From IMG/VR virus record IMGVR_UViG_3300025628_000001: DNA of 48,707 nucleotides. The stretch is one strand, 5' to 3'. The notes under the pieces are model-generated. The model was given only the letters and a program-made list of their open reading frames with translations, was not told where the DNA came from and made no database searches. The stretch's first letter is position 1, and every line of letters starts with the position of its first letter. Below are positions 11,363 through 30,800 of this stretch, one piece after another. This DNA comes from a virus. The position numbers and the translations under genes are program-made.

Positions 11363-11675
11363 GCAGGCGTGGACTGGCGGGGCGGGGCATGGTCAGGCCC
11401 GGCGCGGAATGGCTTGGCAGGCATGGCCAGGCGCGGTGAGGCAAGGCGAGGTGAGTGGGGCGAGGCATGGCAGGCGTGGTCAGGTCTGGTTTGGCATCGC
11501 TGGGCGAGGCGAGGTATGGCGGGGCAGGCTGGGCGCGGCAAGGTTCGGCGGGGAGAGGCAAGGCGTGGCAGGGCAGGGCAGGTTAGGCGTGGCGAGGCAG
11601 GGCAGGGCACGGCAGGCTAGGCGTGGCGAGGTTTGGCTTTGCAAGGTCAGGCATGGCAGGGCGAGGCAGGCAGGG
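11361..11675 (+). repeat. G-rich (GGYNN)n pentanucleotide-periodic tract, about 60 units
   Basis: GGC, or occasionally GGT, recurs every 5 nt (sometimes 4) with variable 2-nt spacers. The tract has very high GC in an otherwise AT-leaning genome and carries no stop codon in any of the six frames. Confidence 0.9.
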
Positions 11676-11701
11676 AAATCTATAACGAAAGGAGGAACAA
11701 A

Positions 11702-12403
11702 GTGACTAATGCAATTATTTACGCGAGGTTTTCTCCGCGCAGAAACGCTGAAACTTCAGACTCAAACGAGATCCAGAAGGCATATTGTGAACAGCATGCT
11801 CATGACAAAAAATACACTGTGGCCGGTTTTCATGAGGACAAGGCCCTTTCCGGATCCGACGCAGATCGTCCGGCTTTGTGGGCCGCCCTGGAGCAATTAG
11901 AAAAGGGCTCCGTCTTGCTGGTTTATAAGCTCGACAGACTGGCCAGAAACGTCTATCTGATGGAATTAATAAAGCAGGCAGTGAAAACCTGCGGCGCAAG
12001 GATTGAAGCCGTTGAGGGCGATGTTGAAGGCGATACGGCTGAATCTGTGCTGATTAGACAGATACTTTCTAGTATATCGGAGTATGAACGCAAGATCATA
12101 GCCTTAAGGACTAAATTTGCAATGCAGCAACATCAGCGAAACGGAAAGAGAATGGGTAGGTTTCCGCCTTATGGTTTCCAGATCGATCCGGAAGACAATA
12201 CCATGCTCATCCCGGTTGAACTAGAGCAAAAGGCAATCGTCCGGATCTGGGCGATGAAGGCCGAAGGATATGAGACTATGCAGATTGCCAGAAAGATGAA
12301 CCATGAGAAGTTGCATAAGACCCGGAACGGAAATCGCTGGGCCAGAAAACAAATTGATAAAATCTTAAGTAATCACAAACAAATAAAAGGAGACAGTAAA
12401 TGA
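11702..12403 (+). CDS. Small serine recombinase (resolvase/invertase family, about 233 aa)
   Basis: AIIYARFSPRRN contains the catalytic Ser context. Also present are DKALSGSDADRPAL, LLVYKLDRLARN and a C-terminal helix-turn-helix-like region. The likely start is GTG 11702, 7 nt after GGAGG. The upstream part of the track ORF is an artefact of the stop-free tract. Confidence 0.85.
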   Translation: MTNAIIYARFSPRRNAETSDSNEIQKAYCEQHAHDKKYTVAGFHEDKALSGSDADRPALWAALEQLEKGSVLLVYKLDRLARNVYLMELIKQAVKTCGARIEAVEGDVEGDTAESVLIRQILSSISEYERKIIALRTKFAMQQHQRNGKRMGRFPPYGFQIDPEDNTMLIPVELEQKAIVRIWAMKAEGYETMQIARKMNHEKLHKTRNGNRWARKQIDKILSNHKQIKGDSK

Positions 12404-14631: not shown

Positions 14632-16881
14632 CTATTCAGGTTCTTGTTTTGTTTCTTCCAATCCATACGGGTATGCCCAGACCATCAAGGCGCGTTTCCC
14701 CGGTTTTGTTCCGATTACAACATGTTTTTGTTCTTGTAAATCAGCTAAATGGTCGTCGCGTTGACGTTTGCTGTGTTTCGGGGTTTTTTGTGCAAGTACA
14801 CTTTTCGGGATCCCTTTTGCTCCGGCCTTTTTAATATGGCTAAATATTCTCAGTTTGTCTTTTTCGTAAACACTTTCTACGACATGGTTCTCTACCATAT
14901 TCACAGTTCTGGTCAGGAGTGCATTTGCCAGTTGACACGCCCAATCAGCGTGCATATCTGAGATCTCGGGATTGTCGAATCTATCCCCTGCAGCGACATT
15001 AAGCGCAAGCCGGCGAGCGTTCTCCCCGGACTTTAACCATAATTTATCAACACCTTTATTCTGGTTCTGTCTGGCCATTCGGTCTGACGCTAGTTCAAAA
15101 TCCATAAAGCATTCATGGGCCTGCGCGTTTGTAGGGATTACTGCCGGGAATATGCCCGTTGCCGCGTCGATGTCCGGAGTTCCTGCAGGGGCCATAATTG
15201 ATCTTGTCCACCATGCCTGCAGCTGAGTGACCAGATGCTCTGGAACAGGTTTTGTTTCGTGTTCTTTCCATCTTTTAGCTGGATTTGTGTTTGATATAAA
15301 TATCAACACACGACCCAGCCATCCGTCCTCGATCTCTGCAGGACTGATACCCTCGCAAAGCTTTTCAGGTGTCGTCGTACCATATAGGCAGCAACATGGT
15401 TGAACGATAACCTTGCGCTCCTGTTTTGCATATTCTTTGCCATAATATGTCGATTTCGCACATGAATAAAGTTTCATTAATATCGGGACAATAGATGCTA
15501 AATGTGGATTAACTCCGCCAGAAGCCTTGATGCTACCCATCATGTGGCCAATTTCATCCATGGGGAAATATATCGAAGGAGATTCTGTCAGGCGTGATTC
15601 GATCGCTGCATCTCCAGTGACACTTTCTCCGCCCAAAATTGCGTGAATCCCTGCGGTTTCTATCAGTCTTTTAATCTGATCTCTGGCGTGCTCCTTCCCT
15701 GCGCTGGAAGGAGCGACACCCATTGCGTACAGGTTTGTCCGATTGTTCCATTGATCTCTGACCTTCTGTCCGAATAGTGCTCCACAGAAAGGCAGGACAG
15801 CCCCAAGAGTGAGTAAAGGTTGATCTTTTAAAGCAGTTGCGTTGATCCATGCACAAATGTCTCCAATTAAGCCTGGCGGTTTCAATAACCATTCAGGGAA
15901 TGCTTCTTCAGGTTTTATCTCGGAAACTGATTCAATTCTGGGTTCGTTTTTTACTTCTTTTTTCACACTGGCCAATAATCCAGCTGCCAGTTTTCCGCCA
16001 TAGTCCATGAGTTCCTCATCGTCTGGCCTTAACCCGTATTCTTCTAATAACCAGCCTGCAGGTTTCTTCCCGGGCGTTTTCTTAGCTTCATGTACTTTTC
16101 TCTCGAAGTCTTTCCGTTCCTTTTGTGGATCCCATGGCGGATTGCACATGGGATTGTATACGCTCCATAACAGCTGGATTGCCGTACCCTCATCGAGTTC
16201 AAAACCAACTACCAAAGAGCGAGCGGCCCATAATAGAGCCTCATGGCCGTCCTGTCCCTGATTTGCCGGCGCACATTTCTTCAGGTACAGTTTCGCTCTG
16301 TCAATAATGTCTGTTTTGGGAAGATTTACTTTGTTTATTATTTCCCTGGGCTTTTCCCATGGTAATGCCGGTGCTTCTTTTTCTGGCTTCAGATGTTCCG
16401 GATATTCTGCCAGCTCGACATCATCAGGGCCATGTTTCGGCATCCATTGATACTTCTTCCCGTTTGGATGCGTGGACGGGGTTAGAATAATATAATAGCC
16501 GTCACCCCGGATATCGATTCCGTTCCGGAAGTTGTTTCTATTTGCAGGAGGATCGTCTGATTTAAACAGATAATGCGCTCCGCCTCTCGGTGTGATCTGA
16601 ACGGCTGTTTTTGGCATGGTTTCGGAGAATTCTTCGAGAGATTCAAACCCGTCCTCACCTTTCTCTGGGTCATAGTCGATATCGACGGTATAAACTCCGG
16701 AAGCTTCACCACAGGCAAGTCCGATATTTGCCTCTGGCCATCTTTGCCACCAGGCGCGAATGGTTTTTTCGTCGGTCGTTGCGTCTCTGCAGCCATGTTT
16801 TGTCAGCGGTGTTTTGACTTTAGCTCCACATGGGAAGATGTGCCAGCCTCTTTGCGAGTAGTTCAGTGCGTGATTAATCAT
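14632..16881 (-). CDS. Bifunctional primase-polymerase (prim-pol) fused to a DUF3987-like P-loop helicase domain
   Basis: The N-terminus carries GWHIFPC, VYTVDIDYD (DxD) and PRGGAHYLF, which are prim-pol motifs. The central region carries GVAPSSAGKEHA (Walker A) and YFPMDEIGH (Walker B). Confidence 0.85.
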   Translation of the reverse strand: MINHALNYSQRGWHIFPCGAKVKTPLTKHGCRDATTDEKTIRAWWQRWPEANIGLACGEASGVYTVDIDYDPEKGEDGFESLEEFSETMPKTAVQITPRGGAHYLFKSDDPPANRNNFRNGIDIRGDGYYIILTPSTHPNGKKYQWMPKHGPDDVELAEYPEHLKPEKEAPALPWEKPREIINKVNLPKTDIIDRAKLYLKKCAPANQGQDGHEALLWAARSLVVGFELDEGTAIQLLWSVYNPMCNPPWDPQKERKDFERKVHEAKKTPGKKPAGWLLEEYGLRPDDEELMDYGGKLAAGLLASVKKEVKNEPRIESVSEIKPEEAFPEWLLKPPGLIGDICAWINATALKDQPLLTLGAVLPFCGALFGQKVRDQWNNRTNLYAMGVAPSSAGKEHARDQIKRLIETAGIHAILGGESVTGDAAIESRLTESPSIYFPMDEIGHMMGSIKASGGVNPHLASIVPILMKLYSCAKSTYYGKEYAKQERKVIVQPCCCLYGTTTPEKLCEGISPAEIEDGWLGRVLIFISNTNPAKRWKEHETKPVPEHLVTQLQAWWTRSIMAPAGTPDIDAATGIFPAVIPTNAQAHECFMDFELASDRMARQNQNKGVDKLWLKSGENARRLALNVAAGDRFDNPEISDMHADWACQLANALLTRTVNMVENHVVESVYEKDKLRIFSHIKKAGAKGIPKSVLAQKTPKHSKRQRDDHLADLQEQKHVVIGTKPGKRALMVWAYPYGLEETKQEPE

Positions 16882-18508
16882 TTAAGCTATACCCTATTAT
16901 TTCAGCGTTTTTCCCGCGCTGCCGCACGGTGATTGTTCGGGTTCTGTCGTTGATCCATTGTGGTAAAAACATGTCCTGTAGTGCTTCTCTTACAGTTATT
17001 GTATCCCAACTAGAAAAGCCCCTAGCTCTCCACCATTGCCGAGCTTGTCGTTCGGCATATCCACCATGATCCAAACAGATCCATTCTCTAAACGTGCTGA
17101 TCCCGCATCGATATTGCACCCGGAGACTATCAGGTTTTTCTGGCTTAATATGCCGATGAACAGTGACGGCATCAACTAAGAGAGTTTCTGGTTCGCTACC
17201 CAAGATATTCTTATTACTGTGTTTTGCTTCGTTAAGTCTTCTTTCTCCTTCTTCAGATTCAAGCCTTTCAATTTCCTTTTTAGGGATCACCCAACCACAA
17301 TGAGGGCATTCCCCAATAGCACGACTAAAGGTATCACCACAGTCTTTGCACTCGATTATTTTAACCACTCCAGCGTCCAGGCAATCAATTGGCCCATGCT
17401 CTTCAATACACCCAGCATAGTCAAGCACTAGACAATCCTCTTTCCCGGGATGCGTCCGCAGACCACGCCCGACCATCTGCATATAGAGCCCTTTTGACAG
17501 CGTAGGGCGAAATAGGGCAACACAATCCACCTGCTTTGCATTAAACCCTTCGGTATAAACATTGATGTTACAGATAGCTTTAATCCTACCGGCCTTAAAT
17601 TCATCTGCTATGCGATCGCGTTCTGAGGCCGGAGTTTTTGCCGTCACAACCGGAGCGTGGAGCCCGTATTTTCGAAGTTCTTGGGACACGGCTTTGCAAT
17701 GGCTAATGTCAACACAAAAGAAAATAATGTTTTTCCGTTTTTCAGCCATGATGGTCTGCATCGAGGATTGGACAGCCACAGCGACAACATCGCTTTTATC
17801 AACTGCCTCGGCCAGTGATTTTATGATATAGTCACCGCCCGAGTTCCGCTTTACTTCTGTTAGGTCGGGTTGAGCGTCACCGATTTTAGATCTCAGCCTG
17901 CAGAGATATCCACCCTCGATCAGATCCCCGACATTAGCCTCATAACAGACGTGATGTAAAATGTGGTCCTTATGACAAATTGGGCCACATCCCATCCGGT
18001 AAGGTGTCGCAGTAAACCCGACAATTCTCAGGTTTTTGTTAAGGCTCCGGCAACCTTTAATAAACTTCCGATATTTACCTTCCCCTTTGGCCGGTATCCT
18101 ATGAGCCTCATCAATAATGATGCAATCGAAAGGTGCGAAGTTCCCCCATCTTCTGTGAATGCTGTCAATACTGGCATAAGTAACAGAATGATCTTCATCT
18201 CGTTTTCTTAGCCCTGCAGAGTAGATCCCAATATCCCCACCGGGCCAGACTTCCATCAACTCTTCAGCGTTTTGTTTAACCAGTTCTTTCCTGTGGGCTA
18301 AGATACAAACACGGAAAGCAGGATAGTCAGCTTTCCATCTCTGAATCGCCCACGCCATCATTAAAGACTTGCCTCCGCCGGTTGGGATTACTACGCAAGG
18401 ATTCGACTCATAGATACAAATATGGTGATGCAGCGCACTTATTCCGTCCTCTTGAAAAGGATAGGGTTGTAGAATACTACTATTTGCCGTCGCAGGGAAC
18501 AGTGTCAT
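16874..18508 (-). CDS. SF2 DEAH-box DNA helicase with a C-terminal zinc ribbon
   Basis: Motifs seen: PTGGGKS, IIIDEAH, FTATP, QMVGRGLR, and CKDCGDTFSRAIGECPHCGW. Confidence 0.85.
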   Translation of the reverse strand: MTLFPATANSSILQPYPFQEDGISALHHHICIYESNPCVVIPTGGGKSLMMAWAIQRWKADYPAFRVCILAHRKELVKQNAEELMEVWPGGDIGIYSAGLRKRDEDHSVTYASIDSIHRRWGNFAPFDCIIIDEAHRIPAKGEGKYRKFIKGCRSLNKNLRIVGFTATPYRMGCGPICHKDHILHHVCYEANVGDLIEGGYLCRLRSKIGDAQPDLTEVKRNSGGDYIIKSLAEAVDKSDVVAVAVQSSMQTIMAEKRKNIIFFCVDISHCKAVSQELRKYGLHAPVVTAKTPASERDRIADEFKAGRIKAICNINVYTEGFNAKQVDCVALFRPTLSKGLYMQMVGRGLRTHPGKEDCLVLDYAGCIEEHGPIDCLDAGVVKIIECKDCGDTFSRAIGECPHCGWVIPKKEIERLESEEGERRLNEAKHSNKNILGSEPETLLVDAVTVHRHIKPEKPDSLRVQYRCGISTFREWICLDHGGYAERQARQWWRARGFSSWDTITVREALQDMFLPQWINDRTRTITVRQRGKNAEIIGYSLND

Positions 18509-20129: not shown

Positions 20130-21449
20130 TTATTTGTTTGGTCCTGTTAATTCTAGTATCCATGCTGTTTGTGAGCATTTAACAATAACGGCAACACGCC
20201 GTCCCTTGATCTCTTTCGCCATATATTTGCCGTCATGCTGTGTTGCTGTTGGATTCACGTTTGCCAGAGATTCGTTATAAAACGATTCCCACGCCTTATT
20301 GAGCATAGACGCTGGCCCGCTCCACTTCTGGACGCTCAAATCACTCTCGTACCGCTCCATAACATTGCCAATCGGCACTCCACCATAAACGACCTCAGAT
20401 CCCGAAAACTCTTCCTTGATTATTTGAGTTTTGTCGTTGAGACTTGAAGGAGTACAGGCCATAAGTTCTTTTGTGCTCCATTTTCCATCACCGTCGCCGT
20501 TTACCCAAATTGATCCATCCTTATTTGTGAATTCAATGCTGTTGTCTGTTGAGTCTGTTGGTTTTGCGAAGTGGATCAGGTCTGGCAGAACGATGTGATG
20601 AGGGCAGGCTTCAAGCTGTTTTTCGCGTGAAATTGTCGCTCCGGTATAGTTACAGCTCCAGCGTCCATGGTCCGTGTCCGTTTCGGGAGTAGAATGGCAA
20701 CATTGCCTGCAGGAAATGTACGGTACCGGCAAAGCTTTTAAGGATTCCCCCCAACATAAATCGGAGGCAGGACAAAACCTGCAGGTAAATGTTCCGGGTT
20801 TTGAAACACATCTTTCTGGAGCATGTCTGGCTAGAATTATCCGACGGGCCTTCGCTATTAGTTCGTTAGATTCCCGTCCACTATAATGAATCCGCTCGGT
20901 GTAAAGTTCATCGGTGTTTTTGTTTACAGCCATATACAAGGCACGCTTCATGCCCGTCTTATGCATATACATTTGCATCTGAGCATAGTGCTTGAAGAAT
21001 CCGACCTTAACGCCTTTTTTCTTCAGGATCTTAAAATATTTGTCGTTGTGGGTTTTGCCTTCGAATACATGCCAAGTTTTAGGAGCTTCAGGAATACCTA
21101 AGCAGCAACCGTCCATATGACCGCTAAAATGACCGCTGACATCCGACATACCAAACTGTTCACCTTTGTCATCAACGTCGTGAACGGTTACGCCTATAGA
21201 CCTTAGATCCCTTACCATCCGGCCTTCCTGCAGGTGTCCTGTCTCAAACAACCTGTAAAGTCTGCCAGGGAAATTCTCTTGTACGCAATCGTTAAAATCG
21301 TACCAGAGATAACGATCACACTCATGGCCAATGATACTGGCCCCCAGATATCCCCTTGGAGGCTCAGTATCGCCATCAACCTTAAGGCTAATATATATGG
21401 CCGTGACTGTTTGTGAATCAGTTGGGAGACAGGAACTAATATCTCCCAT
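20130..21449 (-). CDS. Cas4/RecB-like PD-(D/E)XK exonuclease with an Fe-S cysteine signature and an extra Cys-rich C-terminal domain
   Basis: GASIIGHECDRYLWYDF, HMDGCCLG and VFEGK form the D...ExK core. One N-terminal Cys plus CRFCPASDLC gives C-x2-C-x5-C. CRQCCHS...WSCN...ACPHH follows. Confidence 0.75.
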   Translation of the reverse strand: MGDISSCLPTDSQTVTAIYISLKVDGDTEPPRGYLGASIIGHECDRYLWYDFNDCVQENFPGRLYRLFETGHLQEGRMVRDLRSIGVTVHDVDDKGEQFGMSDVSGHFSGHMDGCCLGIPEAPKTWHVFEGKTHNDKYFKILKKKGVKVGFFKHYAQMQMYMHKTGMKRALYMAVNKNTDELYTERIHYSGRESNELIAKARRIILARHAPERCVSKPGTFTCRFCPASDLCWGESLKALPVPYISCRQCCHSTPETDTDHGRWSCNYTGATISREKQLEACPHHIVLPDLIHFAKPTDSTDNSIEFTNKDGSIWVNGDGDGKWSTKELMACTPSSLNDKTQIIKEEFSGSEVVYGGVPIGNVMERYESDLSVQKWSGPASMLNKAWESFYNESLANVNPTATQHDGKYMAKEIKGRRVAVIVKCSQTAWILELTGPNK

Positions 21450-22048
21450 TACTTAATCACTAATATTTTTTCACGTTTTGGAAGGCATGCACCTTCAACC
21501 GCAATCCCAGCTTTGAGATCGGCGCGAATGTCGTCGGTCAAGACCTTGGTTGTGGTTACTTCTTTAAGGTATTTCCTAGCCAAATCCGGCACGCCTTCGC
21601 TGTCCACTTCGGCAAAAATATCAATCGGTGCTTTCCCTCCGGGGTTCTGGACGTTCAAGGTATGTTTTGTGGTTTTGACTTTTGGGGTGTTTGAGGATTC
21701 CATGGCATGTTTTAATAACTCTTTGACTTTATCAGCCTTTGCAGAAAACTGCTTCGCCATGGCCTGCAGCCTTCCAGCCTCAAGCTTGAGAGTTTTTTCC
21801 TGAGCGATAGCATCTTTGATTATATAAACAAACTCATCAGCTCTTTCGGCCAAGTTCTCTTTGATATCGTCATAAAACGATTTCAAAGCGTCCTGAACGG
21901 CCGCGGAAGGGCCTTCGGCCTCACCTTGAACACCAGAGGCCAATGTTTCATTCTGCTCTTCAGTATAGAGGTCCCATGCGCTTGCAAAGCTGTCGGGGGT
22001 TCCGAACGATGTCAGCTCGGGCTTAACTAATTTCAATGCTGTGTTCAT
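21449..22048 (-). CDS. Siphovirus Gp157-like protein
   Basis: A coiled-coil centre followed by KVKTTKHTLNVQN...IRADLKAGIAVEGACL...ILVIK resembles the Gp157 family. It sits in a Sak4-type module. Confidence 0.6.
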   Translation of the reverse strand: MNTALKLVKPELTSFGTPDSFASAWDLYTEEQNETLASGVQGEAEGPSAAVQDALKSFYDDIKENLAERADEFVYIIKDAIAQEKTLKLEAGRLQAMAKQFSAKADKVKELLKHAMESSNTPKVKTTKHTLNVQNPGGKAPIDIFAEVDSEGVPDLARKYLKEVTTTKVLTDDIRADLKAGIAVEGACLPKREKILVIK

Positions 22049-22063: not shown

Positions 22064-22639
22064 CTATCGCTCCCATGGCGGTTTAGTTTTGGTTGATGAC
22101 GTAGTTGCTGGTTTGATGGTTTTTTTTGCCTGAGGCTTTGCCTTTGTGGTCCCACTGTCTGGCTCAGTACCAGCAGTCGCTTCTTTTTCTTCTTTTTCTT
22201 CTTCTGCTTCTACTTCCTGATCCGGGTTAGCTGGCTTGTACGTCCGGACTTCGTTCTCAGCTTCACGATCACCGTCACCAGCCTTAACTTTGAGCTTGAC
22301 GATAATTATTTTCTCGATCAGTTCCTGGCTGTCGGTAATCGCAGCCAAGCCAAGGGCCTGCCCAAGAGCGGCCAGTTGCTTAATGCCAATCTCAACGCAT
22401 TTCGAATTTGGGTTGCTAAGGTTAATGTTATCAAAGACTTTCCGGCCCTCATATTCTTCTCCAATAACAGAAAGCTGAAGTTTGAGATATGATCCATCGC
22501 CTTTTTTAGTCTCTTTTACTTCTGCTTTCTCGATGAACATGTGGTATTCACCAGGAGGCAAAGGTTTAAAGTCTTCTGTCTTTTCATGCTGGCCTGGCTC
22601 GAAAGCGTTCCCACCATAACTATCTGAAATATCGCCCAT
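22064..22639 (-). CDS. DUF669-type single-stranded DNA-binding protein
   Basis: LPPGEYHMFIEKAEVKETKKGDGSYLKLQLSVIGEEYEGRKVFDNINLSNPN pattern with an acidic/low-complexity tail. Confidence 0.65.
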   Translation of the reverse strand: MGDISDSYGGNAFEPGQHEKTEDFKPLPPGEYHMFIEKAEVKETKKGDGSYLKLQLSVIGEEYEGRKVFDNINLSNPNSKCVEIGIKQLAALGQALGLAAITDSQELIEKIIIVKLKVKAGDGDREAENEVRTYKPANPDQEVEAEEEKEEKEATAGTEPDSGTTKAKPQAKKTIKPATTSSTKTKPPWER

Positions 22640-22663: not shown

Positions 22664-24466
22664 TTATTTAACTACCTTAGTCAATGCTTTCATAAATTCA
22701 TTCCAGTCAAGAGGCAGTTCATATGGCAATCGGCCATAAGGGCCACGACCACCACCCGGATGAGCTGGTCTTTTCTGGGTGAACAGAAATCGGGATCCAC
22801 CAGTTACGTCAATACCGCGTTTCTTTTCCTGTCCAAACCCTTTGTCTTCTTTCTGCACCTTAACTTTAGTGTTGCAAAACAGAATTACATCTGCCCAACG
22901 AAAAAGCATATTTACGGCTTTCTCGTTAATGTCAAGAATGTACTGATCGTAGCTGTCACCGGATGGATCGTCAAAGCGTTTAACCTTAACATGTCCGATA
23001 ATAATACTGGACATCCCTTTGTGGCTTCTCAGGGCGTCCAACCCTTCTGTGAGCTGTCTCCAATAGTTCACTGATTCGGTGTATCCTTTGCCATACCCAC
23101 CGCCAACGGCCTCAATATTCTTTACGTTTGCAGCGTCGCAAACAGCGTTCCAGACAAGAGGCTCCATCGCGCTTGCGCTGTCTAAAACTACGGTTCTGTG
23201 CTCATGTTCTTCGGAGTAAAGGGATCCAAGTGCTTCGATAATATCTTCAAATTTATTGCAAACTGGAAACTTTGGGATTTCCAAGTCGTCTGCTCCCTCT
23301 TCACCTTTCATCGATAATAGGATAGGAGCGTTCAAGCCGGTCTTGAATATTTTATTGTCCTTAAATTGCGTTCCGCAGGAAAAGGTCGTGTTGTGTGTTA
23401 CGACCAAATCTCGTCCCGCTAGATAGGTGTGAGAGGGTGAATCGACGGATATACATTTAACAGGGACGGACTTTACAGGTGTAACGGAGACGATAGCATC
23501 TTTATTGGCTTTCCTTCTGGAGTTTTTTGTTTTAAAGCAGTTAAACTTAAACTTTGAAAACCTAAAAGGATTTTCTTTCGGGAAAAATGCTACACGAAAA
23601 TTGGGCCCACAATCTTTGCCATTAAGTTTTGCACGACATCTTGTAATAGATGCTTTGACCCCGAGAGATCGAAGCAGTTCGATAAATCCGTCACAGAGAC
23701 ACTCTTTGACCGTTGAGAATTCACACTGGCCTTTGTTGTTGTCGTAGCAACATCCGTCAGTATCCATGAGCCCAGCCAGCAAGCTTCTCCTGTCTTCTTC
23801 GGTACTTTCCCAAACTGAAGCATGGGGGATGTGCTTATTGCCTAGCAGGTTTCTGTTTCTTAGTTTTACTTTAAGACCTAAGATCGTAGAAGTCTTGCAG
23901 CCAGCAGTTTGGTATGGTTTACCAGTTGATCCCAAATTATTTCCAATTAGAGCGTCCCTGTCTGATATTGTTACTCGACCATCGCTAGAACTTCCATCTC
24001 CGAGCCAAACTCCCAAAACATATGGGTCAATGCCTATTACTGAAGTCTTCTTTATCTTGAGCGGGAGCGTGATTGGGACTGCATGATTGTAACGATCTCC
24101 GTTGGGAGGTCTAAGGGTCTTAAGGATTTGGCCTGTAGTCAACACTCGTTCTTTATTGTCCCGTATCGACCTTGTGAGCCATTGATGCTCTTTATCGGCT
24201 ATCAATGAGGCCCCGCTCTTAAACTTCACTTCATAGCAGGTTCGTTTTTCCATGATACCCGTCACATCGGTAACGCGTACCATGCTGCCGTCTCTATCAA
24301 AGACATAATCCCCTCTTTTAATAAATTTCAGTGGTTGCCATCCCCTGTTTGTAAAAATTGGGGTATTGTAGTCGAGAGCCTTCCCGATCTTTTCAACACC
24401 TAGAACCAGGATCCTTGGTGCTCTTAAAATTGTTTCTTTTTTAATACTGTTAAGGTCAAACGTCAT
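22664..24466 (-). CDS. Sak4-like RecA-fold (AAA_24) recombination ATPase interrupted by an intein (270-aa extein plus 330-aa intein)
   Basis: The Walker A is split as LVLGVEKIGK | intein | TTFSCG. The C-extein carries VVLDSASAMEP (Walker B-like) and SIIIGHVK. Confidence 0.8.
   Translation of the reverse strand: MTFDLNSIKKETILRAPRILVLGVEKIGKALDYNTPIFTNRGWQPLKFIKRGDYVFDRDGSMVRVTDVTGIMEKRTCYEVKFKSGASLIADKEHQWLTRSIRDNKERVLTTGQILKTLRPPNGDRYNHAVPITLPLKIKKTSVIGIDPYVLGVWLGDGSSSDGRVTISDRDALIGNNLGSTGKPYQTAGCKTSTILGLKVKLRNRNLLGNKHIPHASVWESTEEDRRSLLAGLMDTDGCCYDNNKGQCEFSTVKECLCDGFIELLRSLGVKASITRCRAKLNGKDCGPNFRVAFFPKENPFRFSKFKFNCFKTKNSRRKANKDAIVSVTPVKSVPVKCISVDSPSHTYLAGRDLVVTHNTTFSCGTQFKDNKIFKTGLNAPILLSMKGEEGADDLEIPKFPVCNKFEDIIEALGSLYSEEHEHRTVVLDSASAMEPLVWNAVCDAANVKNIEAVGGGYGKGYTESVNYWRQLTEGLDALRSHKGMSSIIIGHVKVKRFDDPSGDSYDQYILDINEKAVNMLFRWADVILFCNTKVKVQKEDKGFGQEKKRGIDVTGGSRFLFTQKRPAHPGGGRGPYGRLPYELPLDWNEFMKALTKVVK
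23390..24379 (-). mobile_element. Intein with a LAGLIDADG homing-endonuclease domain; class-3-type signature
   Basis: It starts ALDYNTPIFTNRG (Ala1, block A). Block B is GASLIADKEHQWLT. The two LAGLIDADG motifs are LGVWLGDGSSSDG and LLAGLMDTDGCC. Block F is VKCISVDSPSHTYLA. It ends VVTHN followed by Thr+1. Confidence 0.8.
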
Positions 24467-24677
24467 TGTTAGTAACTCCTTCCCTTTCCTCTTTTAACTG
24501 CTGTTTGGCGAATATAATGATTTTAAGCTTGCTAATATCACCCCACCTAATTCTATGCGCACACGATTGAATGTACTGGAGTAGCAAAAAAGTTCTTGAC
24601 GATCTTACACAGGTAGAATGTTTGTTTTGACCTAATTTAGAAAGAAAAGTCCTTTCGTTCGACGTTGTGTATCTCAT
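24456..24677 (-). CDS. Possible small basic protein (73 aa)
   Basis: Track ORF with GGAGGTG 4 nt upstream of the ATG. It overlaps the Sak4 start by 11 nt. There is no functional clue, and the region may simply be a promoter/leader. Confidence 0.35.
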   Translation of the reverse strand: MRYTTSNERTFLSKLGQNKHSTCVRSSRTFLLLQYIQSCAHRIRWGDISKLKIIIFAKQQLKEEREGVTNNDV

Positions 24678-24853: not shown

Positions 24854-27800
24854 TTATTTTTCATTAAAAATTTTATTTAGATGTCGCATTCTCTTCCAAT
24901 AACTTTTAGTACCTACCTTCCTGCCTGATCGCCTACCGTCAAGAGTAAATATCCAGCGATTCCTGAAAGCAGCTGCAACAAATTTAAAATCATCCTCATA
25001 CTGTGGGTTGTTATGAATCGCGTCAAGAAGCTCTTCTTTCCGAGCCGGTGTAATGTTTGGGTTTGTTAGCTGCCATGCAGCGTTCCGGATGATCTGGACA
25101 TCGCCTTTTACCTGGTCGTCAACTTGTGCCTGAGTTAATTTCAGCTCATAATACATCGCAAGAGATGTCGGGTCCGGATCAATTTCGTTTTTACGTTTCT
25201 TTATCAGCTGGTCCCATGCCTGTGCTCTTTCTTCTTTACTGGAGATAGAAAACACATTAACTGCCTGGTCGAATGATAGCCTTTTAAACGATGCTTTAAA
25301 CGGAGACATTTTGGCCGTGGCTTTGATGTTTTTCTGCTGTCTGGCCGTAAATCCCTCGTAATCCTCTGCAGGGATTATTTTTCCTTTCCGGATGCTATTG
25401 ATTATCTTTCTGCGACGATCTGATTCCTCAGCGTCCGCATGAGAGATGTTACTGCGACCTCCTTTTTCTCGGTTGTAGTCAATCATCCTCTTCTGAGCCG
25501 GTGATCTCGTGATATATGCGGGAGCCGGCGATATTCCGGACGCTCCTATGATCCATGAGACGGACGTTTTCTCTCCGTTCTCATGTAGCTTCATACCGTT
25601 TCTAACAGAAAATGGCATGAACATGTTTTCAACAAAATAAAGCGATCCTTGCGCTAGTCTGGTTAAAGGATCACCTTCTTTGATCTGCCGCCCAAAATAA
25701 TCTTCATTAGTGAGGAGGTCAACTGCAGTACCCCACAAGGGGTTCAGTTTATGTGTGAGCGTCTTCCATGGCTGTGTCATCCACGCCACTATGTCTTTAG
25801 AATAATGTGGGTTAGAAAGCCGCTCAGGGCTTCCGTCGGTATTCTTGCGGCCAGTTTTTGGAAAGTAAAGGTCCTTTGGTTCTTCTGGCGGTTCTCCAGT
25901 AAAAAGATATTGAAGCAACGCGCCCTGAATGGCGTAAGAGATCCCAGCTCCGAAGGCATAACCCATTCTGCGAGTGACAACATCCTGATCGTTGCCAATC
26001 CTTCTCCAGAACGTCGCAGCGTCCACTGCTCCGCCTCCAAACTCCCTTATCGATCCCAACGTCCAACCAGGAGCACGAAAGGCCAGCATAACGATCTCCT
26101 TGACCGTCCTGTTCCAGTTCAGGTTATCATACCGGAGTTGACCCATCCTGTTATCAACATTATCCCATGCACTGGCAAGTTCTGACTGTATCCGGATATC
26201 GTCCCAATCCTTTTTATTGGCCTGTTCATAGACATCGGAAGCCATATGGTAAAAGATCCCTAATTTAAGGCGCGGTACCTCCATCTGCATGATCGGAATA
26301 GAAAGTCCTTCGATCAGAGCCATGGAAGCATGAATCGGTGCTGCCATCGCACCCTTAACTTTGCCAGAAGCATCTTTGCTAAATTTAACATCTCTCAGGG
26401 CCTTAAGTAAATTGCTCCCGGCATTATTCCTGTATGCTGCATCCATGGTCGCACTACCACCGCCATCAATTACGGCCTGAACAATTTTTCTCATAAAAGG
26501 ATCTTCAATCTCGCTAAGTTCCTGCCCCATGGCCTTCATTACTTTGTCGCCGGTAAGATAATCTGAAACCGGAGCTTTCCATGATTTCTTCACCCATTCG
26601 TCGATTGCACCACTAACATCTCCCCTTGAGAGTTTCTGCAGGCCAAGACCAATGTGCGTATTTATACTGTCTGATGCCACATTAATTCCGTGAAACGCGC
26701 TTAAGCCGTGACTTGCCATCAGGGTAACATTCCGCAATTTGCGAAGGCCGTCATAGATGTTTCTGGTGATGAGACTTGGGCTCGAGCCAAGGCCCGGGGA
26801 AAGATGTCTGTTAAGAATTGTTGCGGCTTCTTTAGGTACGGCCCACTTCCCAATTTCAAGAACTCCCGGTTGAGTATGTGTTGACGATCGGGTCCCGAGA
26901 ACTACCGATCTGTCAAGATTCAGCAGTGGTTTTACAATATCGTTATCATTTAAGAAGGTTTTCCATGCTGCAGAGATCTTCGGGGCAACCTTTGCCATTT
27001 TCTCCGGAGCTGCAAGCCATGCTTCAAGAATTACAGCTTCCTTCTCTTCTTTTTTACGGCGGTACCTTTCCCTCGTTTTCCCAAGATCTCCCAGGGTCTC
27101 GTCTCTGAGATCAGCTAGGGCCTGAAATTCTTTCCGGATCGCAGCACGATTAGCAGTTTGCTCGAATTTTATGGGCTGTCCTTCACGTTTACCGCTTTCA
27201 TGTACGCGGCCGATCGTATGGTCGCCATGCAGCATGTAATTAAATAAATCGTACTGGTTTCCGATCTGATGGCCTATTTCATGAGCCAGCACAGATGTTG
27301 GTCCTGCGAATCGAGTCTCTATTTTGTTTTGACCGGGATATGACAAACCCCATACTTGACCGCGCATTTTTGCTACACGTTCATGGGAAACGCCCATTCT
27401 GGTCGCTACGCCCATGAGTTGGTCCACAAGAAGCTTGTCATATGCTTCAGGGAGGGTAAGCTCAGGTGTCACCTTAACTTCCATATCCGGATCGTCAATA
27501 AACTCCCATCCGGCCTTTTTATAATTCTTCTCTAATGAAGACGGAACGAATACAGCCATGCCCAGCTCTTTAAAATCCTGTTTGATCCTCTTGCCGGCAA
27601 CGAAACGATTCATCTCATGAAGTCTTAAAATTGTCATCTCAACCGGATTGTAATGGGCCAACTCAAGGCCAGCATCAAGGCCGTCTTTTAACGTGAGATA
27701 TTTTCTTTTATGAAGGAAGCCTTTCGGGACCAGTCTTCTTTTAGACAGTAATCCGGAAATCACGTCAGAGGCATGTTCTGGTCTTTTAAATAAGTGAGGG

Positions 27801-30800
27801 AAATAATTTTCAATATAATCTTCTAGTGCACCAAACTCCTGAACCCTTTTACGGCCCTTGTCCAACATTTCACGCAGGAGTGCTGCAGCGTCATCCAGTT
27901 CTGTTGTTACTTGAGGACGCGCACCTTTTGGATCCTCCATCTTGTCAATAAAATCAACGATGTCCTCCGGAGCCATCCAGTGAAACTGTTTGCCCGTCTC
28001 ATGAAGCTTGGCCCGTGTCATCTCGTCAAGCTGAGCGGCTTCTGCGGTTCTTTTTCTTTTAACTAATGCCGCGACTTTTCCAATAACCCCACGTTTATGA
28101 GGCATAAGGATCTCCATTACATTGTCGGCAACTTCCCCTGCAGTCATTTTTGCCTGGGCAACTTTAGTCAGGATCTCGTTTGAAGGTTCATTCTGGGAAT
28201 AACTGTCATCATCTGAAACTGCGACGTTTGCGTTTCCGGAGGATCCACCGCCTTTTTTCTTCTTGTCGTCGGGCAGGTCAGTCTGCTTACCCTGTTTCTT
28301 TTTCCTTACTTCGTCAAACTCGAAATCTTCGCCTTTTGCGTCTTTCTTGGCCTGTTCCAAATCTGCTGCAGCGTCGCCATCAGTTTCGGTCTTAAACATT
28401 TTAGGCTGAACAGGCTTTGCCTTCTTTTTCTTACCCTTGTTTTTTTCTTTTTGCTGTTCGAGAATAAGAGGCTCTTTGGTGATATCTTCTCCGGCCTCTA
28501 TTTTTTTATTTAGAGCGTCCTGCCCTTCCTGTAAGCTTTTGTCGAGATCCTCAATGGTAGGTTTTTTCTTTTCCTTGGAAAGAATATCTGCAGTCTTTAC
28601 CAACATGTGTCCGATGTGCTCATGTTCTGTGTTGTTGCCAGTCTTCGGGTCCTCCATTGACCAGCGGCCATCTTCTTTCTTGGTCCCCCTAAACCTGTCA
28701 TTGATGTGGAGCCCTCTTCCGCCCATAACCTGTCTGATGTCAAGATCGTCAAACATGGCAATCTTTTCTAGCTCAGTTTCTGTCAGATTAGGCTCTTTTT
28801 TTTCGTCCTTAAGCTCATAGTCTTCCCGTTTTTTGTCCGGAGCTACTTCTTCACCCGCAGGCTTTTTAACAGCTTCTTGCTTAAGTTTATCAATCTCCCG
28901 CGCTTTTTTAGCAGATTCAGCTTGCAAGAATTCCTCTTCGAAGTTGTCTTCTTTGCCCTGCTCAACCTCTTTTTCTATTTCAGCTTTCCGTTTGTCTTCA
29001 CCCTCAAATGGTTTCTGCTCTTTTCTGTTGTCAATTTTTTCGTGATGTTTAAGCCTCTTGAGCTGTCGTTCTTTTATTGCCAGTTGTGTCTTTAAGTCCC
29101 TTTCTTTTTCTTGCTGTCCAGCGAACCATTTTATAGTTTCGTCGGCGGCTTGATCTGCCTCTTCTTTGGAAAGCCCAGCTTCGATGCTATCTCGGAGAAC
29201 TTCTTCCCGTATGCTTTCTTCCTGAGATCTCTCAGCTTTGCTAATTGCTGTTCGTTCAATGCCTTCATCTGTTAGCTCCTTACTAATATAATTTTCATAC
29301 TCCTGTTGTTGAATATCGGCCTCATCAGATGCCTTCTGTGCGATGTCTCCAATTGCAGAGACTTCTGTTCCGGAATAAGATTCCTCCATTTTCTTAAAAA
29401 AGTCATCGATGTCAGCTTTTCCATGCTCATCTGTCTTGATATATCCTGCTTCGGCCAGAGATTCTGCCATATGGTCAATACTCATTCCACCTTTTTTCCG
29501 GAGAACAGGTCTTCCAACCATTTTGGTGTTAATTCGTTTATCTTTTGACATGTCAGAGATTATGGATCCCCATTGTCCATGAACATCATCAAAGTCTAAA
29601 CCGCCGACCTTTGAAATGTGCTGCAGCATAGTGTCGGGTTTCTTAACCTTTAAGCCTTTACTTTTAATTTTGGATCCGATTTTGTTTCCCGGATCCTCTT
29701 TCTGCCTTTTTTCAATTGCAGAGATCAATTCAGTTTTTTTCATGTTAGTTTTAAGGCCAAGCCCTTTGGCCAGTGCTCTAATTTCTTTAAATGGTTTCGC
29801 CTGCAGGTCAGAGTTTGGTAATACTTTGTCAAGCTGATCTTCCAGATCTGCCGGTTTTTTGTCTTGCACGGCTTCTTGCACGCCCTGTGGAAGTTGCGTC
29901 TCATCACCGGCAGGTTTTATCTTTTCCTGCACTTCAGCTACAGTTTTATCCTCTTCCTTCGCTTGCACGGCTTGCACTTCAGGTGTAATTTTCTCACTCC
30001 CACCAACTCCCACCTCCTCTGTCGTGGGAGTAGTTTCTTCCTCTTCTGACGCCTCAGAAACCAACCCTCTCGCATTGTCAGCAAAAGCCGATCGATCTTC
30101 TTTAGACATCTCCGGGAGACCGTATTTTGCAAAAACCTTCCGGGATGGTTTTTCTTCACGGGCCAACTCTATTGCTTCCCCTGGGTTTTCTGAAACCCAT
30201 GTCGCTGTCCCAAGCTCGGTCTTTAACACTTCTTTCTCAATTTCACGGCCTAAAGCGATTTCTGTGTCCTCTTTTGACTTAGAGGCGCGATGGAGCATGT
30301 TTTTCGTAGTTTCTTTGTCAAGGCCATATGTGTTTGCAAGGGAATCAGTGAAAGCATCACGTTCTTTTAGGTTTTTTTGACCTTTCCATCCTTGATACGT
30401 CCCGGTACCACCAACAGCAAGGAAGGTCTGCATTATCGTGTCAATAGCCGTGTCCCAAAGTGCCTTTGGTTCCAAGGCGTTCGGGTCAATATCGCTTATT
30501 TTCCTATTTGCGCTATGAAGCCCTTCTGTGATTAACTCTTCCGGGGCCTCACGCCCAAGACTTTTCCCGATGTCCTTCATTACCTGCTTAAAGCCTGCTC
30601 TTATGATTTGTTTTCCGCCGCCAAACATTGACTCGAAGCCGCCCCAGCCAAGTTTTTGAAATATGCTGGCAACGGCTCCCTCGATTACTGCAGCCCGACC
30701 GGCATAAAGTAAACGATCTGAACCTTCAAGACCTTTGTCTGTAGCAGTAGTTAAAGCATCATTTCCCTCAAAAAGAGAAAAACCGGCAATGATCCCATAA

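What the first reader, a model, noticed from the sequence alone, without database searches (positions are those of the whole stretch)
23390..24379. Class-3-type intein (Ala1 plus Trp-Cys-Thr signature) with a LAGLIDADG endonuclease, inserted in the P-loop of the Sak4-like ATPase
The 600-aa ORF reads ...RILVLGVEKIGK / ALDYNTPIFTNRG ... DLVVTHN / TTFSCG.... Removing residues 30-359 recreates a canonical Walker A (GVEKIGKT) and a 270-aa Sak4-sized protein.

The insert has intein blocks A, B, F and G and two LAGLIDADG motifs.

It starts with Ala, not Cys or Ser. It has Trp two residues after the block B His (KEHQW), a Cys in block F (VKCISVD) and Thr-His-Asn at the C-terminus. That is the non-contiguous W-C-T pattern defining class 3 inteins, which splice through a block F cysteine branch as described for the mycobacteriophage Bethlehem DnaB intein.

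Class 3 inteins are uncommon. As far as I know, a Sak4/AAA_24 P-loop insertion site is not a standard one.
Basis: partly seen in the sequence, partly recalled or inferred. Interest (0 to 1): 0.7.

Follow-up and report, generated by a model that had tools for sequence, protein, structure and literature searches.

The report
Class 3 intein splitting phage Sak4 P-loop
A self-splicing protein element (a class 3 intein carrying its own homing endonuclease) sits exactly inside the ATP-binding loop of a phage Sak4-like recombinase. It is a clear, well-preserved example of a known kind of element in a host protein not yet described in the literature I could search.

Summary
The 600-aa ORF at 22664..24466 (- strand) carries a 330-aa in-frame insert at 23390..24379, between Lys29 and Thr360. 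Removing it gives a 270-aa AAA_24/Sak4-like protein that aligns without a gap to 120 intein-less homologues. Natural 270-aa alleles 92-94% identical to the predicted spliced product exist.

The insert is a bifunctional intein. Its splicing halves match the crystallised class 3 inteins Mch DnaB1 and Msm DnaBi1 (E 7e-20 to 2e-18). All class 3 signature residues are present: Ala1, Asp62, His65, Trp67, Cys309, Thr328, His329, Asn330 and Thr+1. They are near-invariant across 73 full-length relatives. The middle is a LAGLIDADG endonuclease with both catalytic Asp motifs. The predicted structure (pLDDT 91.7) matches PI-SceI best.

- The Lys/Thr P-loop junction is the classic class 3 insertion site.
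- Class 3 inteins are common in phages.

The AAA_24 host is absent from the searched literature but has unremarked precedents: Lactococcus phage 949 ORF58 and three metagenomic proteins.

Verdict: a new member of a known kind, of modest interest. Splicing and endonuclease activity are inferred, not shown.

The parts
22664..24466 (-). Precursor gene: 600-aa Sak4-like (AAA_24) protein interrupted by the intein. Includes the stop codon at 22664..22666.
   Evidence: ORF list. Pfam AAA_24, Hom_end and LAGLIDADG_3 hits. The identical or near-identical 600-aa protein is on 23 or more contigs.
24380..24466 (-). N-extein, residues 1-29 (MTFDLNSIKKETILRAPRILVLGVEKIGK). Ends with the Walker A Lys.
   Evidence: Translation. 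Aligns to residues 1-29 of intein-less homologues.
23390..24379 (-). Intein, 330 aa (ORF residues 30-359).
   Evidence: 137 homologues, best E 2.8e-56. Family HMM hit E 1.5e-110, and it is the only such element in the window. AF2 model pLDDT 91.7, pTM 0.90.
24074..24379 (-). N-terminal half of the splicing (HINT) domain, intein residues 1-102. Contains block A (Ala1...), Cys48 and block B.
   Evidence: Aligns to residues 2-71 of 6RIX, 6RIY and 6BS8. The model shows beta-strands for this stretch.
24179..24196 (-). Block B, DKEHQW: Asp62, His65 (B:10) and Trp67 (B:12, the 'W' of the WCT triplet).
   Evidence: Translation. His65 is kept in 72/73 relatives and Trp67 in 73/73. The numbering equals that of Asp62/His65/Trp67 in Msm DnaBi1 (PMC6195587).
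23504..24073 (-). LAGLIDADG homing endonuclease domain, intein residues about 103-292.
   Evidence: Pfam Hom_end 35.2 bits (cutoff 21.1) and LAGLIDADG_3 31 bits (cutoff 22.5). PI-SceI is the best fold match, TMq 0.71-0.76.
23987..24025 (-). LAGLIDADG motif 1 (PYVLGVWLGDGSS) with the presumed catalytic Asp128.
   Evidence: Translation. Asp128 is kept in 71/73 relatives and Gly129 in 73/73.
23750..23782 (-). LAGLIDADG motif 2 (LLAGLMDTDGC) with the presumed catalytic Asp208.
   Evidence: Translation. Asp208 and Gly209 are kept in 73/73 relatives. Aligns to PI-SceI residues 313-371.
23825..23839 (-). Conserved endonuclease motif NKHIP, containing Lys182.
   Evidence: Lys182 and Pro185 are kept in 73/73 relatives.
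23390..23503 (-). C-terminal half of the splicing domain, intein residues 293-330 (blocks F and G).
   Evidence: Aligns to the C-terminal 34 residues of 6RIX and 6BS8.
23453..23455 (-). Codon of Cys309. This is block F position 4, the predicted initiating nucleophile and branch point.
   Evidence: Translation. Kept in 68/73 relatives. Aligned with the catalytic Cys of VPVRC in 6BS8 (Cys118) and 6RIX (Cys124) (PMC6195587; PMC7664689).
23390..23404 (-). Block G, VVTHN: Thr328 (G:5), His329 and Asn330 (which cyclises).
   Evidence: Kept in 70/73, 72/73 and 71/73 relatives respectively.
23387..23389 (-). Codon of Thr+1 (ORF Thr360). This is both the C-extein nucleophile and the Walker A Thr.
   Evidence: Translation. 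The +1 residue is Ser or Thr in 72/73 relatives. Intein-less homologues have Thr (100) or Ser (21) at this Walker A position.
22667..23389 (-). C-extein, 241 aa: the rest of the AAA_24 ATPase core.
   Evidence: Pfam AAA_24 covers residues 380-574 of the precursor. 59-80% identical to 120 intein-less proteins.

Best explanation
This is a full-length class 3 intein: a HINT splicing domain with a nested LAGLIDADG homing endonuclease. It is inserted between Lys29 and Thr30 of the Walker A motif (GVEKIGK|T) of a phage Sak4-like (AAA_24) single-strand-annealing ATPase.

Proposed mechanism. All steps are inferred from homologues, not shown here.
1. The 600-aa precursor is translated with its P-loop split, so it presumably cannot bind or hydrolyse ATP.
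2. Ala1 cannot start splicing. Instead the block F Cys309, activated by His65 with Thr328 and packed by Trp67, attacks the Lys29-Ala1 peptide bond. This gives a thioester-linked block F branched intermediate.
3. The N-extein is passed to the side-chain oxygen of Thr+1, forming the block G branched intermediate.
4. Asn330, assisted by His329, cyclises and releases the intein.
5. An O-to-N acyl shift restores the peptide bond. The product is a 270-aa Sak4-like protein with an intact GVEKIGKT loop.

The freed 330-aa intein is predicted to act as a site-specific endonuclease. It would cut intein-less alleles around GAAAAGATCGGGAAG|ACGACCTTTTCCTGC, and repair would copy the intein in (homing).

The gene lies in a recombination module: Sak4, then a DUF669 SSB-like gene, a Gp157-like gene, and a Cas4-type exonuclease.
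For: Exact colinearity:
- The spliced sequence aligns to 120 homologues of 246-291 aa with no gap at the junction.
- Natural 270-aa alleles P0244 and P0247 are 253/270 and 248/270 identical to the predicted product.
- At the DNA level, intein-less contigs L007-L011 lack exactly the 990 nt.

Class 3 assignment:
- Both splicing halves hit the validated class 3 inteins 6RIX, 6RIY and 6BS8 at E 7e-20 to 1.7e-18, with His65, Trp67 and the VPVxC Cys in register.
- All defining residues are present.
- Among 73 full-length relatives: position 1 is Ala (38) or Gly (27); Trp67 73/73; Cys309 68/73; Thr328 70/73; His329 72/73; Asn330 71/73; +1 is Ser or Thr in 72/73.
- Definition and mechanism come from PMC2807308 (abstract, sections 18 and 30), PMC4031507, PMC6195587 and PMC7664689.

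Fold:
- AF2 model pLDDT 91.7.
- Best PDB matches are PI-SceI, TliVMA and PI-PfuI, all intein-endonucleases.
- The class 3 mini-inteins match at TMt 0.83-0.88.

Endonuclease: Pfam hits are above the curated cutoffs. Asp128, Asp208 and Lys182 are conserved.

Host identity and context:
- AAA_24 and phrog_124 hits.
- Neighbours are DUF669, Sipho_Gp157 and a Cas4-domain exonuclease.
- This matches the published sak4 gene neighbourhood (PMC8093625).
Against: - Nothing here demonstrates splicing, the branched intermediate or DNA cleavage. All of that is inference from homologues.
- One relative of this family, Arsp-FB24 Arth_1007, is a documented non-splicing pseudogene (PMC3196547). Family membership alone therefore does not guarantee activity.
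- Block A is slightly off consensus. It reads ALDYNTPIFT against a consensus of ALALDTPIPT, with Asn5 where 53/73 have Asp and Phe9 where 56/73 have Pro.
- Grafting the WCT triplet onto a class 1 intein did not yield splicing (PMC7664689). The triplet is therefore necessary but not sufficient.
- The closest intein relative is only about 45% identical, so details of rate and conditions cannot be transferred.
Confidence: 0.88

Rival explanations
1. A decayed, splicing-dead intein. The element is a genuine class 3 intein by descent but no longer splices, so this sak4 gene is a pseudogene or makes only precursor.
For: A relative, Arsp-FB24 Arth_1007, is such a pseudogene (PMC3196547; it is hit P0106). 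Another AAA_24 gene with a related intein, L004/P0002, is frameshifted about 10 codons after the intein. Block A deviates somewhat from consensus.
Against: Every catalytic residue is intact: Asp62, His65, Trp67, Cys309, Thr328, His329, Asn330 and Thr+1. The reading frame is open through both exteins. The C-extein is 92-94% identical to intein-less alleles, with no disruptive changes. The gene is kept, essentially unchanged, on 23 or more contigs of about 10-50 kb.
Confidence: 0.07
2. The intein splices by another route. Either Thr+1 attacks the N-terminal junction directly, as in class 2 (KlbA-type) inteins, or an unrecognised nucleophile is used, with Cys309 only structural.
For: Ala1 is shared with class 2 inteins (PMC4031507). 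No biochemistry exists for this intein.
Against: Class 2 inteins have Cys+1, Ser at G:6 and Asp at F:4 (PMC4031507). Here these positions are Thr, His and Cys. The sequence homology is to class 3 inteins whose block F Cys is essential: C118A in Msm DnaBi1 (PMC6195587) and Cys320 in MP-Be DnaB (PMC2807308). No KlbA-type hit appeared.
Confidence: 0.04
3. Not an intein at all. The 330 aa would be a permanent domain insertion, or a free-standing endonuclease gene fused by misassembly.
For: None beyond the lack of experimental proof.
Against: There is a HINT fold and sequence homology at both ends. The insert is in frame and precisely bounded inside an invariant motif, which would destroy the P-loop if retained. 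The 120 closest homologues lack it. The same structure appears in many independent assemblies.
Confidence: 0.01

Closest known systems
Mycobacterium smegmatis DnaBi1 and M. chimaera DnaB1 class 3 inteins (PDB 6BS8, 6RIX, 6RIY)
   Same: - Ala1, Asp62, His65 and Trp67 share identical numbering.
- The block F VPVxC cysteine and the C-terminal Thr-His-Asn are shared.
- Both are inserted in a P-loop, immediately before the Ser/Thr that coordinates Mg2+.
- Cys48, the redox partner in DnaBi1, is also present here.
- Sequence E 7e-20 to 2e-18; TMt 0.83-0.88.
   Different: Those are mini-inteins of 139-146 aa without an endonuclease, in a bacterial DnaB helicase, with Ser+1. This one is 330 aa with an apparently intact LAGLIDADG domain, in a phage Sak4-like protein, with Thr+1.
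Mycobacteriophage Bethlehem DnaB intein (MP-Be DnaB), the class 3 prototype
   Same: A full-length phage intein (341 aa) with an endonuclease domain. It has His65, Trp67, a block F Cys, Thr at G:5, a terminal Asn and Thr+1 (PMC2807308).
   Different: The prototype starts with Pro1 after Gln-1. This one starts with Ala1 after Lys-1. I could not compare the sequences directly: the Bethlehem region I fetched held no homologue.
Class 3 LAGLIDADG inteins in the P-loops of phage terminase large subunits and DnaB-like helicases (e.g. the mycobacteriophage TerL1-a site; Brevibacterium phage Rousseau DnaB)
   Same: Same intein family, and the nearest relatives by identity (43-45%). Same GK|[ST] insertion point, called the 'classic' P-loop insertion (PMC5050341). 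Same two-domain architecture.
   Different: The host protein family differs. No relative exceeds about 46% identity, so this is not a recent transfer from any sampled TerL or DnaB intein.
Lactococcus phage 949 ORF58 (ADM73616.1) and metagenomic AAA_24 proteins P0002, P0303 and P0315
   Same: All are AAA_24 proteins with an Ala1...THN|S/T LAGLIDADG intein at the same GK|[ST] Walker A position.
   Different: - Their inteins are only 29-41% identical to this one.
- Apart from the pair P0303/P0315, they are not each other's nearest relatives. This suggests separate invasions of the same site.
- The phage 949 intein lacks the block B Trp (DEHII).
- P0002's gene is frameshifted.
- None is annotated or discussed as an intein in the literature searched.
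PI-SceI (yeast VMA1 intein)
   Same: Best whole-molecule structural match: a HINT domain plus a LAGLIDADG endonuclease. The second LAGLIDADG region aligns by sequence.
   Different: PI-SceI is a class 1 intein (Cys1). It is larger (454 aa) and has an extra DNA-recognition region. Identity is only 16-18%.

Membership tests
Class 3 intein (definition of Tori et al. 2010, PMC2807308) | Non-nucleophilic residue at intein position 1 | tested here: met
   Ala1. Relatives have Ala (38) or Gly (27) of 73.
Class 3 intein (definition of Tori et al. 2010, PMC2807308) | Trp at block B position 12, two residues after the block B His | tested here: met
   His65-Gln-Trp67. Aligned to His65/Trp67 of 6BS8 and 6RIX. 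Kept in 73/73 relatives.
Class 3 intein (definition of Tori et al. 2010, PMC2807308) | Cys at block F position 4 | tested here: met
   Cys309 in VPVKC, aligned to VPVRC of 6BS8 and 6RIX. Kept in 68/73 relatives.
Class 3 intein (definition of Tori et al. 2010, PMC2807308) | Thr at block G position 5, followed by His-Asn | tested here: met
   Thr328-His329-Asn330. Kept in 70, 72 and 71 of 73 relatives.
Class 3 intein (definition of Tori et al. 2010, PMC2807308) | [quoted passage not shown] | tested here: met
   Thr360 of the ORF. Ser (36) or Thr (36) of 73 relatives.
Class 3 intein (definition of Tori et al. 2010, PMC2807308) | Splicing depends on the block F Cys and proceeds through a block F branched thioester intermediate | not testable with these tools
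   Needs expression, C309A and N330A mutants, and thiol-lability or mass-spectrometry assays.
Intein (HINT-domain protein-splicing element) | In-frame insertion whose removal restores a protein colinear with insert-free homologues | tested here: met
   Zero inserted columns at the junction across 120 homologues. Natural 270-aa alleles exist. There is an exact 990-nt difference at the DNA level.
Intein (HINT-domain protein-splicing element) | HINT fold formed by the N- and C-terminal segments | tested here: met
   AF2 model pLDDT 91.7. Foldseek hits to PI-SceI, 6BS8, 6RIX and hedgehog HINT.
Intein (HINT-domain protein-splicing element) | Produces a ligated extein and a free intein | not testable with these tools
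   Requires an expression experiment.
LAGLIDADG homing endonuclease (intein-borne, two-motif type) | Two LAGLIDADG motifs, each ending in a conserved acidic residue | tested here: met
   LGVWLGDG (Asp128) and LAGLMDTDG (Asp208). Kept in 71/73 and 73/73 relatives.
LAGLIDADG homing endonuclease (intein-borne, two-motif type) | Matches the curated family profiles above threshold | tested here: met
   Hom_end 35.2 bits (cutoff 21.1). LAGLIDADG_3 31 bits (cutoff 22.5).
LAGLIDADG homing endonuclease (intein-borne, two-motif type) | Site-specific cleavage of the intein-less allele | not testable with these tools
   Needs a cleavage assay on the reconstructed empty site.
Sak4-like recombinase / Pfam AAA_24 (host protein) | Matches AAA_24 and the Sak4 PHROG; a minimal RecA-like ATPase core of about 250-280 aa | tested here: met
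   The spliced 270-aa protein scores AAA_24 110.6 bits (cutoff 27), with profile positions 2-194 of 195 covered. phrog_124 E 1e-26.
Sak4-like recombinase / Pfam AAA_24 (host protein) | Intact Walker A after splicing | tested here: met
   GVEKIGKT is identical to that of intein-less homologues.
Sak4-like recombinase / Pfam AAA_24 (host protein) | Typical gene neighbourhood: upstream of an SSB/DUF669 gene, near gam-like or Gp157-like genes | tested here: met
   DUF669 at 22064..22639, Sipho_Gp157 at 21449..22048 and a Cas4-domain exonuclease at 20130..21449. The published pattern is in PMC8093625.
Sak4-like recombinase / Pfam AAA_24 (host protein) | Single-strand annealing activity stimulated by the cognate SSB | not testable with these tools
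   Biochemical assay needed.
Class 2 (KlbA-type) intein | Ala1 together with Cys+1, Ser at G:6 and Asp at F:4 (PMC4031507) | tested here: not met
   Ala1 is present, but +1 is Thr, G:6 is His and F:4 is Cys.

The most novel reading that the evidence does not exclude
The intein acts as a conditional switch on phage recombination, not only as a passenger. It keeps Cys48, the residue that in Msm DnaBi1 forms a reversible disulfide with the catalytic block F Cys and blocks splicing under oxidative stress (PMC6195587). If this holds here, Sak4 ATPase activity would appear only under reducing or otherwise permissive conditions.

In addition, intein-containing and intein-free sak4 alleles occur in related uncultivated phages, and these differ most around the target site. 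They would then be a natural system for watching class 3 intein homing and target-site escape.
Probability: 0.15. Interest if true: 0.5.

Novelty: new member of a known kind. Interest (0 to 1): 0.3.

Why it matters
- It adds the Sak4/AAA_24 recombinase family to the list of proteins invaded by class 3 inteins. An actinobacteriophage survey found class 3 inteins in only four host proteins.
- The same Walker A junction in this family seems to have been invaded by several distinct intein lineages. That supports the published idea that conserved nucleotide-binding sites let inteins hop between unrelated genes.
- For annotation, such genes are easily mislabelled. Relatives are annotated as 'hypothetical protein', 'terminase large subunit' or 'HNH endonuclease'.
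- The intein is compact, fully conserved and has Thr+1. Natural empty-site alleles are available. It is therefore a convenient candidate for testing class 3 chemistry, redox control and homing specificity.

Tried and rejected
- **Megablast of the gene against 50,697 phage records:** no match, so the phage has no close cultured relative.
- **Direct comparison with the Bethlehem prototype:** the region fetched (AY500153, 33-45 kb) contains an intein-less 273-aa DnaB-like gene and no homologue of this intein. I relied instead on the crystallised class 3 inteins and on the residue numbering in the paper.
- **Neighbour-joining tree with bootstraps:** timed out. It was replaced by pairwise identity ranks, so the 'independent invasions' statement has no tree support.
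- **PDB sequence search with the spliced extein:** no meaningful hit.
- **Second intein in the window:** searched for with tblastn and a family HMM; none found.
- **Rfam, tRNA and promoter/terminator scans around the locus:** nothing relevant.
- **The 73-aa ORF upstream and the 2148-aa neighbour:** no informative family hits.
- **Salmonella Jerseyvirus 'intein-containing helicase' hits:** considered as precedents and rejected. Their host is an SNF2 helicase, and the intein starts with Cys, which is class 1-like.
- **Mycobacteriophage Nidhogg gp215:** considered as an AAA_24 host and rejected. Its exteins show no AAA_24 match, and the junction is ELK|S in a protein adjacent to resolvases.
Full report
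**1. What is in the sequence**

The - strand carries a 600-aa ORF at 22664..24466. Residues 30-359 correspond to nt 24379..23390. They begin ALDYNTPIFT and end DLVVTHN, and are flanked by ...LGVEKIGK and TTFSCG....

G+C content does not set the insert apart. The intein is 0.438, the exteins 0.439 and the window 0.444.

**2. The insert is excisable and the host is a Sak4-like ATPase**

With the insert in place, Pfam AAA_24 matches only residues 380-574 of the precursor (profile positions 22-194). With residues 30-359 removed, the 270-aa protein matches AAA_24 over profile positions 2-194 of 195 (110.6 bits, cutoff 27). It also matches phrog_124, 'Sak4-like ssDNA annealing protein' (E 1e-26).

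A search with the spliced sequence returned 1030 hits.
- The 120 best are 246-291 aa, 59-80% identical, and cover 90-100% of the query.
- In their alignment there is no inserted column between Lys29 and Thr30.
- The motif LGVEKIGK[TS] is essentially invariant.

The 90%-identity cluster of the window protein contains four near-identical 600-aa variants seen on dozens of contigs. It also contains two natural 270-aa proteins, P0244 and P0247. These are 253/270 and 248/270 identical to the predicted spliced product.

At the DNA level the intein-less contigs L007-L011 are about 87-90% identical to the window on both sides. They lack exactly the 990 nt. The element is therefore a discrete, precisely bounded insertion. 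It is not an assembly artefact, because 23 or more contigs carry it.

**3. The insert is an intein of the class 3 type**

Sequence search of the PDB gave three top hits:
- M. chimaera DnaB1 mini-intein, 6RIX (E 7e-20) and 6RIY (E 3.3e-19).
- M. smegmatis DnaBi1, 6BS8 (E 1.7e-18).

Each hit has two aligned stretches, covering intein residues 2-71 and 296-330. Both halves of the splicing domain are therefore homologous to these inteins, and the endonuclease domain sits between them.

These are experimentally characterised class 3 inteins.
- In Msm DnaBi1 the WCT residues are Trp67, Cys118 and Thr137, with Asp62/His65 in block B and His138/Asn139 at the end. A C118A mutant is splicing-dead (PMC6195587).
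- In Mch DnaB1, Cys124-His65-Thr143 form a protease-like triad (PMC7664689).

In the window intein the aligned residues are Ala1, Asp62, His65, Trp67, Cys309, Thr328, His329 and Asn330, followed by Thr+1.

[quoted passage not shown] The triplet positions are B:12, F:4 and G:5 (PMC2807308, abstract and section 18).

It does not fit class 2. Class 2 has Cys+1, Ser at G:6 and Asp at F:4 (PMC4031507).

**4. Family-wide conservation**

The intein alone has 137 homologues in the word-indexed database (best E 2.8e-56, at most 39% identity). An exhaustive search with the whole 600-aa ORF, exteins included, found 14,041 representatives at E<=1e-10.

In 73 relatives that align end to end:

| Position | Residues among 73 relatives |
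|---|---|
| 1 | Ala 38, Gly 27 |
| Trp67 | 73 |
| His65 | 72 |
| Cys309 | 68 |
| Thr328 | 70 |
| His329 | 72 |
| Asn330 | 71 |
| +1 | Ser 36, Thr 36 |
| -1 | Lys 63 |

The signature is thus a family property under strong conservation, not a coincidence in one sequence.

**5. The middle domain**

Pfam Hom_end (35.2 bits, cutoff 21.1) and LAGLIDADG_3 (31 bits, cutoff 22.5) match residues 184-255 of the intein.

Both LAGLIDADG motifs are present: PYVLGVWLGDGSS and LLAGLMDTDGC. The acidic residues Asp128 and Asp208 are kept in 71/73 and 73/73 relatives. The NKHIP lysine is kept in 73/73.

An AlphaFold2 model built on a 50-sequence alignment is confident (pLDDT 91.7, pTM 0.90). Its best PDB matches are the intein-endonucleases PI-SceI (E 4e-17, TMq about 0.75), TliVMA and PI-PfuI. 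The class 3 mini-inteins follow (TMt 0.83-0.88), then I-DmoI and hedgehog HINT domains.

The endonuclease looks intact, but its activity is an inference.

**6. How it most likely works**

Steps 2 to 5 are inferred from homologues.
1. The precursor has its Walker A loop split between the invariant Lys and the Mg2+-coordinating Thr. It should therefore be inactive as an ATPase. The same argument is made for P-loop inteins in DnaB and RadA (PMC6195587).
2. Cys309 attacks the Lys29-Ala1 bond, giving the block F branched thioester.
3. The N-extein is transferred to Thr+1.
4. Asn330 cyclises.
5. An acyl shift yields the 270-aa protein with GVEKIGKT restored.

Thr+1 thus serves twice: as the splicing nucleophile and afterwards as the P-loop Thr. 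The same is described for Ser+1 of DnaBi1 (PMC6195587).

The free intein would cut empty alleles and spread by repair.

**7. Genomic context**

Downstream on the same strand lie:
- a DUF669 protein (22064..22639; its PHROG hits include single-strand DNA-binding protein families);
- a Sipho_Gp157 / Mu Gam-like protein (21449..22048);
- a Cas4-domain exonuclease (20130..21449);
- a helicase (16874..18508);
- a primase-polymerase (14632..16881).

This is the published sak4 neighbourhood (PMC8093625).

The window's first and last 56 nt are identical, so it is probably a complete circularly assembled phage genome. The best named extein relative (69% identity) is from Cerasicoccus frondis, a member of the Verrucomicrobiota. 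The host of this phage is otherwise unknown.

**8. Comparison with what is known**

*Insertion point.* It is the 'classic' P-loop site between Lys and Thr (PMC5050341). [quoted passage not shown]

*Frequency.* Class 3 inteins are frequent in phages: 287 of 784 actinobacteriophage inteins, though in only four host proteins, none of them Sak4 (bioRxiv 10.1101/2025.01.02.630785).

*Literature.* Searches for intein with Sak4, AAA_24 or PF13479 found no description of such an intein.

*Sequence precedents.*
- Lactococcus phage 949 ORF58 (697 aa, 'hypothetical protein') is an AAA_24 protein with the junctions ...GRPKSGK|ALDINT and VTHN|TS at the same site. It lacks the block B Trp.
- Metagenomic P0303 and P0315 are AAA_24 proteins with ...GVGK|AQP and THN|S junctions and a full WCT triplet.
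- P0002/L004 is a third case, with a frameshift after the intein.

*Relationships.* By identity, the window intein is closest to TerL and DnaB P-loop inteins (43-45%). The other AAA_24 inteins are at 41%, 30% and 29%. Only P0303 and P0315 pair with each other. This suggests repeated, separate invasions of the same site. It is consistent with the proposal that similar nucleotide-binding sites allow extein switching. I have no supported tree for this (timed out).

**9. Verdict**

It is a well-preserved new member of a known kind, in a host family not yet reported.

Nothing about it contradicts current understanding, so interest is modest. Its practical value lies in three things: annotation, extending the host range of class 3 inteins, and serving as a tidy experimental candidate with natural empty-site alleles.

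Splicing, the class 3 chemistry and homing all remain to be shown experimentally.

Noticed in passing
window 24467..24673 (ORF 24456..24677, - strand): A 207-nt, low-GC (0.34-0.38) insertion lies directly upstream of the sak4 start codon. It is absent from the intein-less relatives L007-L011 and present in all intein-containing contigs L012-L014. It carries a 73-aa ORF that takes over the ancestral ribosome-binding site and overlaps the sak4 ATG. The ORF has no Pfam or PHROG hit.
   Followed up: partly
window 23200..24440 compared with L007:972-1784: Between the window's spliced coding sequence and the natural intein-less allele, mismatches are densest around the insertion site. There are 33 in nt 60-210 against 97 in all 813 nt, with the site at nt 87. 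About 10 of these fall within 18 nt on either side. This could reflect co-conversion during homing or target-site escape. A second dense patch at nt 600-660 weakens the signal.
   Followed up: partly
intein relatives P0001-P0120; junctions: This intein family is inserted after a Lys in 63/73 cases and before Ser/Thr in 72/73, even in proteins that are not P-loop ATPases. Examples are dCTP deaminase (EGK|SSLGRLGL), PD-(D/E)XK/Cas4-like nucleases (DWK|...|TGK) and a Rad52-family protein (AYK|...|SAL). dCTP deaminase inteins are among the closest relatives (about 39%).
   Followed up: partly
window 24236..24238 (intein Cys48): Cys48 is present here and in 61/73 family members. In Msm DnaBi1 this residue forms an inhibitory disulfide with the catalytic block F Cys under H2O2 (PMC6195587). 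That hints at widespread redox-sensitive splicing in this family.
   Followed up: no
window 1..56 and 48225..48707: The first 56 nt equal the last 56 nt, which suggests a circular or complete assembly. The join lies inside a 183-nt tandem repeat (2.6 copies, 90% matches).
   Followed up: no
window 24854..31300 (- strand): A 2148-aa ORF lies immediately upstream of sak4. Its only hit is a Rho_N domain (residues 498-536), and it has no PHROG match. It is conserved in position in the intein-less relatives (L005, L007).
   Followed up: no
L004 (GCA_025490995.1 contig JAOQHZ010138396.1), 165-2047: Another AAA_24 gene has a class 3-type intein at the same Walker A site. Its reading frame shifts about 10 codons after the intein, so the C-extein is called as a separate 223-aa gene. 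The cause is either an assembly error or a decaying gene.
   Followed up: partly
L001 (Lactococcus phage 949, HM029250.1 28101-30194); NC_015263.1: ORF58 of phage 949 is an intein-containing AAA_24 protein. GenBank annotates it as 'hypothetical protein' and RefSeq as 'terminase large subunit'. phrog_19299, labelled terminase large subunit, also matches the window protein across intein and extein, so that label looks wrong.
   Followed up: partly
window 11499..11632: A G-rich imperfect tandem array (periods 24-34 nt; AGGC/GGCAGG units) lies near the 11334..11705 and 11633..12403 ORFs.
   Followed up: no
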